DNA of 64,000 nt from Octopus vulgaris (lineage: Eukaryota): positions 12,896,001-12,960,000 of the forward strand of contig OX597835.1 in NCBI GenBank assembly GCA_951406725.2, in the 5' to 3' direction. Shown here one piece after another: positions 8,289-45,145 of the stretch (position 1 is the stretch's first letter; the number at the start of each line of letters is the position of its first letter). The notes under the pieces were generated by a model. The model was not told where the DNA came from and ran no database searches. It saw only the letters and a program-made list of their open reading frames with translations. The position numbers were made by a program, and so were the translations under genes.

Positions 8289-8708
8289 ATAAGGAAAATA
8301 GGACAAGATAGAAAATGCTAAAATAATTTTATCATGACAAAAATTTTAGTACCGGTTTCAGACTTTGCGACTTTTTCAACTTAGAGTAAAGTATGTAAAA
8401 CAATTAAATTGTGGAAAAATGAAATGAAAGATTTTTTTAAAATATTTCCATAGTTTTCAAAGAGGTGGGACATTTTCCTTTTTTCTGTCTCCCTCTCACT
8501 TTTGTGAAGGCTTGGTCTGCTGGTAGTGGAGAGAGAAACAGAAAAAAGGAAAATGTCCCACTTATTTGGTAACTGTGGAAACACCTTAAAAAACATTTCA
8601 TTAAATTTCTCCGCAATTTAATTGCTTTTTGTGCTAAGTCACAAAGACTGAAACCATTCATCATGATAAAATTATTTTAGCATTTTCTACCTTGTCCTAT
8701 TTTCCTTA
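8289..8708. repeat. ~420-bp imperfect palindrome
   Basis: TAAGGAAAATAGGACAAGATAGAAAATGCTAAAATAATTTTATCATG pairs with ~8662-8708; inner arms ~8430-8500 and ~8525-8600. Confidence 0.8.
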
Positions 8709-9221
8709 TGACTGCGTGTGTACCGTTGGTGATTTTTTTTCCTCTGTCCTCCCTTCTCTGGATCTTTCCTTCTCCTATGTTTCCGACGAAGAGCTCCACT
8801 CGAAACGTTAAACCCTCCTTCTTTCCTTCTTTCCTGAAGCATCCAATAATACTATATTTGTTCCATGTCCTCGTGTTGTTGGGTTTTTTGTGCTTTCATG
8901 TTTGGATTAACTTTATATATACATATATACATGCATATATATATATATATATATATATATATATATATATATATATAAATATGTATATATACATATTTAT
9001 ATATATATATATATATAAAGTTAATCCAAACAAGAAAGCACAAAAAACACCACAACGAGAGGACGTGGAACAAATATAGTATTATTGGATGCTCAGGAAA
9101 GAAGGAAAGAAGGAGGGTTTAACGTTTCGAGTGGAGCTCTTTGGCGGAAACATAGGAGAAGGAAAGATCCAGAGAAGGGAAGACAGAGGAAAAAAAATCG
9201 CCAACGGTACACACACGGTCA
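8705..9221. mobile_element. Inverted pair of a ~205-bp hammerhead-bearing repeat (HH-A; Penelope pLTR/retrozyme-like) around a (TA)n tract
   Basis: 8708-8912 (+) and 9017-9221 (-) are near-identical reverse complements; further copies at 32681-32890, 32980-33183 and 43540-43730. Confidence 0.8.
8779..8813 (+). ncRNA. Minimal type I hammerhead motif, CCGACGA core variant
   Basis: GTTT-CCGACGA-A-GAG(ctcca)CTC-GAAAC-GTT-AAAC. Confidence 0.6.
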
Positions 9222-10204
9222 TATATATATACATATTTATATATATATAAACATACATACACTTATATATATATACACATATATTGTATATACATCTACA
9301 CATGAATTTATATAGATATATATGTGAGTATATGTGCATCCATGTATATGTATGTATATATATATATATATATATATATATATGTATGTATACATACATA
9401 TATATATAGATATATACGTGAGTATATGTGCATGTATGTATGTGAATGTATGTATGTATTTATCTATCTATCTATCTATCTACATATATATATATATATA
9501 TATAATTACATACATATATAGAAACATATATGTGTGTATGAGTCTAGTGTGTGTGCTTCTTGTATATAAATATAGTTAATTACCAAACAGTGAAAAACTT
9601 CACTATCTATCTTTGATTGTCAAATGTTAATTCAGGACAACAAAACAATTATAGTTTGTCTTATTTTCCTTTTCACCATTTTTTTTTTTCTTTTTTGGAG
9701 AAGCCAAACTAATGTTTGTTGTACCATTAAGTCACAGACTTGTAAGCAACTAACACAACAAAAATAAATTCATGAAAAATTCAATAAAAAACAACTCAAA
9801 AGCAAGATAAAACAATGCATAACTCAATAAATAGATAGCAATTTCAAAACAAAAAAATGACAAGAATTCAAAATATATATTTGAGATGAAACTGAAGAAT
9901 TAGAAATTTTTACCATTCTAACACAGACTGTGTCAAGAGATATAAAATTCTGTCTGATCATATATTTATTAAGCTTTAGATGCTATCATTATACTAAACA
10001 ATTAGCCATCCAACCTGAAAAAACGCAGAAACACCTTACATTGGAGATAATTCTTGGATGATTATAAAACTTTTCTATTGAGCTTTTTCTTGATTCATTA
10101 TTTATTAACTAAATTTCATTTGTTTTTCTAATCTTGTCATCATTGTTATTGTAGTGTTGTTGATGCTGTTATCATTATTATTATTATTATCATCATCATT
10201 ATTA

Positions 10205-10510
10205 TTCATCATCATCATCATTTAACGTCTGCTTTCCATGCTAGCATGGGTTGAACGATTTGACTGAGGTCTGGCGAACCAAACTCCAATCTGATCTGGC
10301 AGGGTTTCTACAGCTGGATGCCCTTCCTAACGCCAAGCACTCTGAAAGTGTAGTGGGTGCTTTTACGTGCCACCGCCACGAGGTCCAGTTTGGTGGTACT
10401 GGCAACAGCCACGTCCAAATGGTGCTTTTTATGTGCCACCTGCACAGGAGCCAGTCCAGCGGAACTGGTGACGACCTCGCTCGAATATTTCACATGCCAC
10501 CAGTACAAGT
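10205..10510 (-). mobile_element. SINE-like family B copy
   Basis: CTGGATGCCCTTCCTAACGCC core with (CAT)n tail on the plus strand. Confidence 0.75.
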
Positions 10511-10902
10511 GCTAGTAAGGTGATGCAGTATTATTATTATTATTATTATTACTATTATTATTATTATTATTATTATTATTTCTACTATTATTTCTTTTAT
10601 TATTATCATTATTATCTTCTCTCATTCCTGTTTTCATTTCTTGCCGAGTGTCTTCCTGACACCTAGGGCAGAGAAACGCACTGTATACATTGGTAGGCCA
10701 TTAAAATAAACACACCCAGCGGATTGTTCATTTACAAAGTTATGTGATAGAGAAAAAAAGGGACAAAGATGGAGGGGGAAATAAATGTAAAGAAGGAAAA
10801 TAAAGAGTAAAAAAGGCAAGAAAATTCCCAGAGACTATGCTCTTTTCCTTTTTTGATCATTCCAATTATTATTATTATTATTATTATTATTATTGATTAT
10901 TA

Positions 10903-42408: not shown

Positions 42409-42603
42409 CTTTATTTAAAAGCAGCAGAAAATTCAACAAAACCTGTTACTCTGAGTTTCATGTTCCCGTTCATCGGACAGTTTTTGTGAGTTTCACGTTC
42501 CCGTTCATCGGACAGTTTTTGTTTACAAAAACTGTCCGATGAACGGGAACGTGAAACTGAGAGTAACAGGTTTTGTTGAATTTTCTGCTGCTTTTAAATA
42601 AAG
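42409..42603. repeat. Palindrome carrying compact hammerhead motifs on both strands (HH-C)
   Basis: Plus 42532-42569 CTGT-CCGATGA-ACG(GGAA)CGT-GAAAC-TGAGA-GTA-ACAG; minus copy 42443-42480; 35-nt duplication in the left arm. Confidence 0.8.
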
Positions 42604-43591
42604 CATATTACTCTACCACTGGTATTTGAGTACTCTTTTTTCCACCTTGTTTCACATTTATGTGTTTACTCCGGTACATATATATATATATATATATATA
42701 TATATATGTGTGTGTATATGTGTGTGTGTATGTGTGTGTGTGATCATCATCATCATCATCAGTTTCGTAATTTAACATCTGTCTTCCATGATGGCATGCA
42801 TTGTAGAGTTTGACAGGGTCTGGCAAATCAGAAGACTGCGCCCAGGCCCCAATCGTGTGCTTTGCACTAGTTTCTACAGCTGGATGCCCTTCCTGACACC
42901 AACCACTTTACAGAGTGTACTGGGTGCTGTTTACATGACTCCAACAGCTGCAGCAGTGAGGTCACCAAGTTACAACTCAAAACCCCTCCCCTTAGTGAGG
43001 GAGTTGTATTGAGGCACAGAAAAGGGGGTCTTGCATTAGAAGAGGGGCATGGCTACCTGAGAAGAAGACAGAGGAGATGGTGAAGATGTGACGGGGAGGG
43101 AGCATGGGATTGGTGGGGACAGATCCGTTTTCCCAAGTTACAGAAAGGGGTGTATTGTGAAGTGCACCAGAGATTGGTGTGAGTGAGTTCACGAGATTAT
43201 GAAAGGAAGAGCAGTAGATGGAGAGGGGTCAATGTAATGAGTGGGGCAAAGGTAGCAGAGAGCGGGGGGTATTAAAAGGGTGTGTTGAAGGGATGAGATT
43301 TAATGAGGGACGTTGTGTGTGCAGGTAGGTACATCTACATTGTGAGCAGGTAGGTAGGTATGTGAGTGAGAATAAAGGAGAGGGGGAATACAGTTGTGGA
43401 GAGCATGGGTGAGGGAGGGGGTTGGAGGAGAGGGTGATGGGAAAGGGTGGGAGAAGATGGGTTGTGGGGGGAGAGCTTTGTCAAGGACATGGCTTTATGG
43501 TCTTCATTTTACTTAGCCAAGCAAGTCATAATGTATTTTGGAGATTTTTTTTTCCTCCGTCTTCCCTTCTTTGGATCTTTCCTTTTCCTAT

Positions 43592-43626
43592 GTTTCTGAT
43601 GAAGAGCTCCGCTCGAAACGTAAAAC
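43592..43626 (+). ncRNA. Minimal type I hammerhead with canonical core (HH-A copy 43540-43730)
   Basis: GTTT-CTGATGA-A-GAGC(tcc)GCTC-GAAAC-GTA-AAAC. Confidence 0.8.
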
Positions 43627-45145
43627 CCTCCTTTTTCCCTTCCTTTCTGAGCGTCCAATAATACTATATTTGTTCCACGATCTCGCGTTGTTGTGTTTTC
43701 TCTTTGTGTTTTCATGTTTGGATTAACTTTATATATATATATATATATATATATATATATGTATGTATGTATGTAAGTATGTATGTATGTATGTATGTAT
43801 GTGTGTATGTATGTATGTATGTATATATATATATATATATATATATATTATATAAATATATACAGTATACACACACACACATACATACATATATAGATAG
43901 ATAGATAGATAGATAGATAGATAGATAGATAGATAGATAGATAGATAGATATAGATATACAGACTCACATATGCTTGCACATGCTTTGCGCATACAAACC
44001 TGTGTACATGTGCATATCCATGCATGCACACATGCATGGATATTTGTTGAGATGCTGCTCTTTGTGACAATATATATATACATATATAGATGCATATATA
44101 TGCATGTGTACGAATATGCTCTCATGCATGCATGTGTATAATTCACATGGTAGTATGAGGTTATGTTTCCGTGAGTTTGTATATAGACACACACATATAT
44201 GCCTACGTATGCACACATATTTATGCATATGCTCTGCTTGTGCATGTGCGTGCATATGTGTGCGTAATGCAATTAGATTTTTGCGCAAACGTACAGTTAG
44301 TTGCTATGGTGTCCAGCTCATTGCATTTCTGCATGTGTACTTGTGTACATGCATGTATAAATATGCGTACTTGCATTCACAGAAACAGGTATATATGCAT
44401 ATGTGCATATGCAAAACATGCACATATTTGTGCATATCTATTGGCAACCATATTCACATCTCTGAACATACGCATACGTGCACTTGTATGTGTTTGTATG
44501 TGCATGTGTGTGTGTGTGTGTCTGTGGGCATTTTCTTTTCGAGCAAATGGCTTTATGTGTATGCGAGCATAAGTGTGTGTGTGTGTATGAGGGTGTACGT
44601 GTATGTGTATGTGCATGTTTGTGTGTATATATGTGTGTGTGGGAGGTTATGCATGCGAGTGTGTGAATCATGTGGCGGGAGCGTATGCCAAATCATTCCA
44701 ATATATAACTCGGATCCCATAAAAACCAACACTATCTGCAAATCTGGAAGCTACCGGAATATAGAACTACTTGTGCATATGCAACGAGATCTTTTGAATA
44801 TATAAATAACTCTTGTGATGTTGAACATATCTGTGAATTGAGGAGCAAGCTGGTTATTCAACAAAATACTTCTCTGTGCTAACGAGAAAGCGGTCCCTGA
44901 AACGCCTAATCCTTAAACTTGAAGATACTATCAAAGACATGTGATAGAAATAATACCATTTCGAAGAAGGCAGCAGCAACACATCCACTCCAAAAGCATT
45001 TTGATTTAAAACTGACCGATTCTCATCACAGCTTAAGAAATTATAACAAGGTTTTTCTGAAATTTCACAATAATAGATAGGTTATCAATTTTCTAGAACC
45101 TTTGGTTCCAAAGATTTTCTAGCTTACTGGTTTTTCCAAACAAAG

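What the first reader, a model, noticed from the sequence alone, without database searches (positions are those of the whole stretch)
8705..43730. HH-A: ~205-nt repeat with a 35-nt minimal hammerhead in inverted, tandem and solo arrangements
Seen: five copies (8708+, 9017-, 32681-, 32980-, 43540+), the four complete ones with the same boundaries (TGAC(C/T)GCGTGTGTA ... TTTGGATTAAC) and all ending in (TA)n. Copy 43592 is canonical, with an extra A after CUGANGA. A distant relative at 59994 swaps stem I to CTTT/AAAG. Inference: the direct tandem at 32681-33183 places two hammerheads ~295 nt apart on one strand, the geometry needed for dimeric cleavage and release of a monomer that could circularise.
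Basis: partly seen in the sequence, partly recalled or inferred. Interest (0 to 1): 0.7.

Follow-up and report, generated by a model that had tools for sequence, protein, structure and literature searches.

The report
Penelope-type repeat with minimal hammerhead
Five copies of a very abundant ~210-base animal repeat carry a minimal hammerhead-ribozyme motif of the kind known from Penelope-like jumping genes, and the apparent tandem pair is likely two separate, decayed insertions rather than a unit that releases a circular RNA, so this is an ordinary new member of a known kind.

Summary
In detail: five copies 86.6-94.1% alike, a distant sixth, a 35-nt type I hammerhead motif with an extra A and an ACGU palindrome, 3' ends at (TA)n, cut sites 294 nt apart. 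The motif fits the published minimal hammerhead of Penelope-like elements (PLEs). The family is high-copy: 7,821-25,504 contigs per run in four runs. The monomer-release idea is weakly supported. The tandem copies are the least alike pair of 10 and belong to different subfamilies. Their 90-nt spacer holds a scrap of another repeat. One core carries U4C plus two private changes. The unit folds no better than shuffles. Best reading: a non-coding PLE terminal-repeat derivative, likely pasted at (TA)n by a PLE enzyme, with an inherited, mostly decayed ribozyme. No PLE coding sequence was found beside any copy, so the PLE link is inferred. Of mild interest: a large subfamily has C at core position 4. 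Earlier scan notes describe the same kind of element elsewhere in this genome (e1-9585077, e1-9563196). Cleavage untested.

The parts
8709..8912 (+). HH-A copy, C4 subfamily; left arm of the tail-to-tail pair; its 5' end cuts off another repeat at a TA site
8779..8813 (+). Minimal hammerhead motif, core CCGACGA (U4C), 3-bp stem II, GUU site at 8809
8913..9018 (.). 106-nt (TA)-rich tract shared by the 3' ends of both inverted copies
9019..9222 (-). HH-A copy, C4 subfamily; core CCGCCAA (three changes from CUGANGA), predicted dead
32683..32899 (-). HH-A copy, U4 subfamily, with the ~10-nt 5' extension; core CUGACGA intact (C3 at 32814, site at 32788), 3-bp stem II, private changes in the 3' arm of stem I
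32900..32979 (.). Spacer: microsatellite plus about 40 nt (32929-32969) of a separate high-depth repeat that translates FGFVPGKSTTDAI on the minus strand (LINE reverse-transcriptase-like motif, recalled)
   Evidence: Pfam gave no hit on 22 aa
32980..33192 (-). HH-A copy, C4 subfamily, with the 5' extension; core has U4C, U11.1 and U15.2 (C3 at 33108, site at 33082)
43540..43728 (+). 5'-truncated solo HH-A copy, U4 subfamily
43592..43626 (+). Best-preserved 35-nt minimal type I hammerhead motif: 4-bp stem I, CUGAUGA, extra A, 4-bp stem II, GAAA-CG-UA (GUA site at 43622)
59950..60125 (+). Distant relative (68-76%); stem I CUUU/AAAG; core decayed at three CpG sites (G8A, U11.1, A16.2)

Best explanation
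HH-A is a high-copy, non-coding repeat of about 205-215 nt that carries a minimal type I hammerhead motif, and it is likely a short derivative of the terminal repeat (pLTR) of a Penelope-like retroelement, likely pasted into (TA)n microsatellites by that element's enzymes acting in trans. Shown: the repeat, its fixed 3' end at (TA)n, the motif, two subfamilies (U4 and C4), no protein-coding frame. Inferred: a PLE GIY-YIG endonuclease nicks a TA tract; the PLE reverse transcriptase starts on the RNA about 100 nt downstream of the hammerhead site and copies towards the 5' end, sometimes stopping early (43540). Every copy ends in a TA tract, so later copies tend to land beside earlier ones, in either orientation. 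That gives the tail-to-tail pair and the direct pair. The hammerhead is inherited from the pLTR. It has no loop III, so it would need a second copy through the ACGU palindrome, and probably protein help. Cleavage is probably not needed for copying, and most genomic copies are decaying.
For: The motif meets all four hallmarks of PLE minimal hammerheads that I could check against PMC4209133. The cut site lies 103 nt from the 3' end. In the anole PLE, reverse transcription starts 111-118 nt into the ORF and the cut is at +26 (PMC11167929); Hydra-clade hammerheads lie about 100-200 nt from the 3' end and mostly insert at (TA)n (PMC8557442 and File S1/S2). PLEs tend to insert next to existing copies (PMC6765202 passage). 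Hammerhead mutants did not affect insertion in vitro. The 3' flanks beyond (TA)n are mixed in 4 of 4 runs (agreement 0.56-0.61). The 5' flank is mixed (49 contigs, agreement 0.5; shown for one run). The tandem copies come from different subfamilies. Essential G12 shows A in 15.6% and 4.5% of depth in the two DNA-type runs; 10 of 27 core positions were listed as variable against 29 of 177 outside (40 of 44 rows shown).
Against: No PLE coding sequence was found: 0 Pfam families in 18 ORFs and in 21 read-through frames covering 3 kb beside the copies. Three short HH-A motifs were absent from the PLE sequences in the PMC8557442 supplement, and a fourth matched four times, the two shown being unrelated. 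The inverted pair is tail-to-tail, whereas the typical PLE inverted copy abuts the 5' end. Two adjacent pairs among five copies is more clustering than equal use of 54 TA tracts predicts (P about 0.008-0.02, post hoc), so plain TA targeting does not fully explain it. Stem II is 4 bp, shorter than the 7-8 bp of the Schistosoma families. No genome was available, so arrays elsewhere could not be counted.
Confidence: 0.62

Rival explanations
1. The copies are simply 5'-truncated 3' ends (solo pLTRs) of an autonomous PLE, with no separate short master element.
For: Most minimal hammerheads occur as single motifs tied to truncated PLEs (PMC4209133). Depth falls towards the 5' end and copy 43540 is truncated.
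Against: 4 of 5 copies start within 10 nt of each other. Contigs running past the 5' end give no shared upstream sequence (agreement 0.5, one run). No ORF lies upstream of any copy.
Confidence: 0.2
2. HH-A is a non-LTR retrozyme: arrays are transcribed, cut by dimeric hammerheads and circularised; the window holds monomers, and the 32681-33183 pair is a decayed dimer.
For: Size, 41-43% GC and lack of an ORF fit (PMC7229834). The hammerhead sits mid-unit. Three of five copies have TA on both sides, so a TA linker could be part of a unit. Monomers are common in retrozyme families, which are themselves proposed to be PLE derivatives (bioRxiv 10.64898/2026.07.22.740005). Family sequence is in two runs guessed to be RNA (3,748 and 242 contigs).
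Against: The pair is from two subfamilies with a foreign spacer. No 3'-to-5' joint appears among the joints shown (15 of 69; 9 of 9), though the tool skips TA repeats. As a circle the unit is 40-50% paired, z -1.2 to +0.2; the 294-nt piece has z +1.3. The motif is minimal, not the canonical form of coral retrozymes.
Confidence: 0.13
3. A SINE-like repeat moved by a LINE, in which the hammerhead-like stretch is a chance or irrelevant match.
For: Fixed ends and a microsatellite tail. Rfam gives 0 hits at gathering score. Covariation is slight: 1 of 8 pairs, reached by 89 of 500 shuffles.
Against: All PLE-type hallmarks occur together. The scan background is 0.2 per window. No tRNA or A/B boxes. 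The distant copy keeps stem I by a double change.
Confidence: 0.05

Closest known systems
Minimal hammerheads (min-HHR) in pLTRs of metazoan Penelope-like elements (Cervera and de la Pena 2014, PMC4209133; parts 1-2 of 4 read)
   Same: Type I topology, no loop III, palindromic 15.2-16.2, extra base between 9 and 10.1, G10.1-C11.1, 4-5-bp helix I, mostly single scattered motifs, some pairs 100-700 bp apart on opposite strands.
   Different: Helix II is 4 bp (7-8 bp in the Schistosoma families). A large subfamily has C4. No PLE ORF was found next to any copy here.
Hydra-clade PLEs (Craig et al. 2021, PMC8557442; passages, section 11, supplement part 2 and searches)
   Same: (TA)n targets, hammerhead about 100-200 nt from the 3' end, frequent GUU/GUA sites.
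   Different: Hydra hammerheads have a longer helix III with a short loop. No short HH-A motif matched the supplement in context. The inverted copy here is tail-to-tail.
Anole Poseidon element PAc (Frangieh et al. 2024, PMC11167929; parts 1-2 of 4 read)
   Same: 3' end about 100 nt downstream of the hammerhead site; AT-rich targets; gives the likely mechanism (internal RT start, cleavage dispensable in vitro, protein-assisted ribozyme).
   Different: PAc codes for a protein whose ORF starts inside the hammerhead; HH-A has no such frame.
Metazoan non-LTR retrozymes (PMC7229834, parts 2-3 of 6 read; bioRxiv 10.64898/2026.07.22.740005, parts 1 and 3 of 5 read)
   Same: Short, non-coding, low GC, type I hammerhead, probably PLE-mobilised.
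   Different: Defined by tandem units and highly self-paired circular RNA. HH-A shows no true tandem here and no unusual self-pairing.

Membership tests
PLE minimal hammerhead (min-HHR) | Type I core CUGANGA...GAAA...NUH with helices I and II | tested here: met
   Intact in 2 of 5 copies (43540, 32681); U4C or worse in 3 of 5
PLE minimal hammerhead (min-HHR) | [quoted passage not shown] | tested here: met
   A in 6 of 6 copies
PLE minimal hammerhead (min-HHR) | G10.1-C11.1 pair | tested here: met
   G-C in 4 of 6, G-U in 2
PLE minimal hammerhead (min-HHR) | Palindromic 15.2-16.2, no or tiny loop III | tested here: met
   ACGU in 4 of 5 copies, AUGU in 32980
PLE minimal hammerhead (min-HHR) | Self-cleavage as a dimer | not testable with these tools
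   Needs in vitro transcription
Autonomous Penelope-like element | ORF with PLE reverse transcriptase and GIY-YIG endonuclease | tested here: not met
   No Pfam hit in 18 ORFs or 21 read-through frames; window only
Autonomous Penelope-like element | Inverted 5'-truncated copy abutting the 5' end | tested here: not met
   The pair is tail-to-tail
Non-autonomous PLE derivative / solo pLTR | Fixed 3' end joined to (TA)n, hammerhead about 100 nt upstream | tested here: met
Non-autonomous PLE derivative / solo pLTR | Sequence match to the pLTR of an autonomous PLE | tested here: inconclusive
   No genome; no match in context in one supplement; no related hit in three prokaryote/virus collections
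Non-autonomous PLE derivative / solo pLTR | Optional 30-40-bp tail | not tested
   None evident in five copies; needs the assembly
Non-LTR retrozyme | Head-to-tail tandem units, each with a complete hammerhead | tested here: not met
   At this locus: different subfamilies, foreign spacer, one degenerate core; genome-wide arrays not excluded
Non-LTR retrozyme | Highly self-paired circular fold | tested here: not met
   40-50% paired, like shuffles (prediction only)
Non-LTR retrozyme | Abundant circular RNA in vivo | not testable with these tools
   Only contigs of runs guessed to be RNA were available
tRNA-derived SINE | tRNA-like head with Pol III A and B boxes | tested here: not met
   (simple consensus patterns, recalled)

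The most novel reading that the evidence does not exclude
HH-A is a discrete, PLE-mobilised ribozyme RNA whose C4 subfamily expanded because U4C damps rather than kills cleavage. Transcripts from separate loci pair in trans through the ACGU palindrome and are cut with PLE-protein help. New copies home to the TA tails of older copies, and the tail-to-tail pair records two primings from opposite ends of one TA tract in a single event. This would make a naturally attenuated, trans-dimerising hammerhead a selected trait of a successful mobile element.
Probability: 0.1. Interest if true: 0.5.

Novelty: new member of a known kind. Interest (0 to 1): 0.2.

Why it matters
As it stands, little: minimal hammerheads in PLE ends are published, and this is one more family. 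The role of these ribozymes is still open (PMC8557442 says so and suggests they may be passengers). A family with large U4 and C4 subfamilies gives a natural pair for asking whether cleavage matters for spread.

Tried and rejected
Whole-genome analysis: no genome is held. Rfam: 0 hits at gathering score; 405 weak matches at E<=1, the 150 shown being microsatellite- or hairpin-driven with no hammerhead family, 255 unseen. The repeat finder was swamped by microsatellites. Collection scans: viral 0 and 0, prokaryote genomes 0, metagenomes 1, which is a chance 21-nt match inside a bacterial ORF and was dropped (L001). No RNA holder is on record; the two runs guessed to be RNA hold the family as contigs but cannot show strand, ends or level. 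Forcing the double hammerhead on the 513-nt tandem transcript costs about 20 kcal/mol (-59.1 against -78.8); there was no positive control, so I give it little weight. Pfam could not name the 22-aa spacer peptide and a paper search for its motif gave two irrelevant papers, so 'LINE RT' is recalled. GUU as a sign of decay was rejected: it is common in Hydra PLE hammerheads. U4 as mere CpG decay of C4 was rejected: the distant copy has U4, U4 tracks other subfamily markers, and no matching G5A row was listed. Lunse et al. 2016 on dimeric PLE hammerheads is not held; I saw only its citation, and it may already report such variants. Searches for print on this family ('hammerhead ribozyme'+'octopus'; 'U4C'; 'CCGAUGA'; retrozyme+mollusc/cephalopod) found no description in the listings; an octopus repeat annotation has 0 uses of 'ribozyme' (PMC13282606, passages). 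Repbase/Dfam could not be checked, and bioRxiv supplements are closed.
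Full report
Observation. The repeat is real. BLAST of the first copy finds five copies at 86.7-100% and nothing else long. A profile from those five adds only the distant copy near 59990. The alignment confirms the shared 3' end TTTGGATTAAC followed by (TA)n, and the 5' start near TGAC. The best motif, 43592-43626, is GUUU CUGAUGA A GAGC UCC GCUC GAAA CG UA AAAC. A relaxed scan finds 7 hammerhead-like motifs in the window against 0.2 in 30 shuffles; five belong to this family (pattern chosen after seeing the motif). 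The extra A is in all six copies. Two copies carry about 10 more 5' bases. Only two of five have the canonical CUGANGA.

Context. The window is microsatellite-rich animal-type DNA (26% masked by TRF). The stretch is held by 20 of 24 listed runs from 9 studies under four organism labels. Four runs laid 13,015, 25,504, 21,275 and 7,821 contigs on the tandem, so the family is very abundant; the tool's depth is not a copy number. Earlier scan notes call the host likely an octopus (e1-8868148); I did not test this.

The motif. It matches the minimal hammerhead of metazoan PLE terminal repeats point by point: extra base between 9 and 10.1, G10.1-C11.1, palindromic 15.2-16.2, short helix I, a predicted need for dimers, and low activity in vitro (PMC4209133). 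That paper also reports mostly single motifs and some pairs on opposite strands 100-700 bp apart. Covariation in six copies is slight: one double change in 8 pairs, reached by 89 of 500 shuffles, though slid pairings drop from 94% to 52% or less. Folding predicts a competing helix in which the stem I 5' arm plus C3 (GUUUC) pairs with the core GAAAC; for 43592 this fold has frequency 0.76. Self co-folds also prefer a duplex through the GAGCUC palindrome. Both predict poor activity, but they are only energy models.

The tandem. The two copies are the least alike of the 10 pairs (175 of 202, 86.6%). Of 14 informative columns, 8 (six events) group 32681 with 43540 against 8708, 9017 and 32980, and none groups 32681 with 32980 alone. 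The 90-nt spacer is microsatellite plus about 40 nt that translate FGFVPGKSTTDAI. That piece has its own high depth in 4 of 4 runs, and its contigs run on at 32971 into one shared sequence that is not HH-A (47-134 contigs, agreement 0.75-0.78); read by hand, this continues the same frame for ten codons. I recall the motif as LINE reverse transcriptase; Pfam could not confirm it on 22 residues. In a double hammerhead the 32681 site would be cut by the 32980 core, which has U4C, a G-U at 10.1-11.1 and U15.2; the last two are private (83-99% of depth has the other letter). A released piece would be 294 nt, include the foreign spacer, and fold no better than shuffles (z +1.3). The pair is therefore best read as two insertions. 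In a recent test 8 of 9 genomic retrozyme dimers from Xenopus did not cleave (bioRxiv 10.64898/2026.07.22.740005).

The family. Beyond the 3' (TA)n, flanks are mixed in all four runs. Beyond the 5' end, 49 contigs of one run give an AT-rich mix ending TTCAAAATG with agreement 0.5 (only the best-supported loose ends are shown). No joint from the 3' end back to the 5' start is listed (15 of 69 joints shown, 9 of 9), but the tool skips TA repeats, so arrays are not excluded. No PLE protein was found within 3 kb of the copies on the element strand or in 18 window ORFs. The core is not better kept than the flanks: 10 of 27 core positions against 29 of 177 outside were listed as variable, chiefly CpG sites, including G12A at 15.6% and 4.5%. 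At position 4, only 5.6-13.7% of depth laid on a C4 copy showed U. When a U4 copy was offered too, it drew 0.5-1.4 times the depth of the C4 copy. Both subfamilies are large and the ratio is not determined. U4C is reported to lower activity considerably in vitro while still allowing viroid infection (PMC3088659 passage).

Mechanism. Most likely a PLE enzyme nicks TA-rich DNA and starts reverse transcription at a fixed internal site of this RNA, about 100 nt downstream of the hammerhead site. This is as shown for the anole element, where hammerhead mutants still inserted and the ribozyme cut only with protein (PMC11167929). Hydra-clade PLEs show the same (TA)n targets and spacing. These steps are inferred by analogy; no partner element was found. 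One thing is not fully explained: two adjacent pairs among five copies exceed equal use of 54 TA tracts (P about 0.008-0.02, crude and post hoc). PLEs are described as inserting beside earlier copies (PMC6765202 passage). The inverted pair is tail-to-tail, unlike the usual PLE inversion. Its arms are the closest pair (94.1%) and share the same 5' end, which could mean one event.

Verdict. It works like a PLE terminal-repeat derivative and meets the sequence definition of a minimal PLE hammerhead. It fails the tandem and self-pairing tests for a retrozyme at this locus. Earlier scan notes, unchecked, describe the same kind of element and C4 variant on other pieces of this genome; a sequence look-up found no match, so I cannot say they are the same family. 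New member of a known kind; interest 0.2.

Noticed in passing
window 11635-11680 +: A second, sequence-unrelated minimal hammerhead motif with a canonical CUGAUGA core, extra A, 6-bp stem II, AACGUU palindrome and 5-bp stem I.
   Followed up: no
window 42400-42680: Hammerhead motif at 42532-42569+ with a CCGAUGA (U4C) core, preceded by inverted partial copies of itself and flanked by (TA)n. Its layout (CTGT...GAAACT.AGAGTAACAG) resembles the Hydra-2_aMil hammerhead in File S2 of PMC8557442. So U4C occurs in two families in this window.
   Followed up: partly
window 8289-8709: A foldback repeat with inverted arms (8289-8337 / 8661-8709) and an inner hairpin (8442-8584). HH-A cuts off the right arm at a TA site; the rest of the arm was not found after the inverted pair, suggesting target deletion.
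   Followed up: partly
window 33207-33666, 14346-14621, 17636-17929: Another repeat family; the copy just upstream of the tandem forms a long palindrome next to (TA)n.
   Followed up: no
window 14856-15046: A GC-richer inverted repeat of about 190 nt.
   Followed up: no
window 4793-5260 -: 156-aa open frame that looks like a Tc1/mariner-type transposase fragment (recalled); no Pfam hit at E 0.01.
   Followed up: partly
window 5388-5557, 12817-13920, 20142-20528, 23327-24029, 26172-27095, 41108-41448, 45244-45593: Very frequent SINE-like families, 75-97% alike, with many copies in the window.
   Followed up: no
window 57830-58080 +: Short-period tandem repeat that translates as repeated GGHPATRRASSHKEG-like units.
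   Followed up: no
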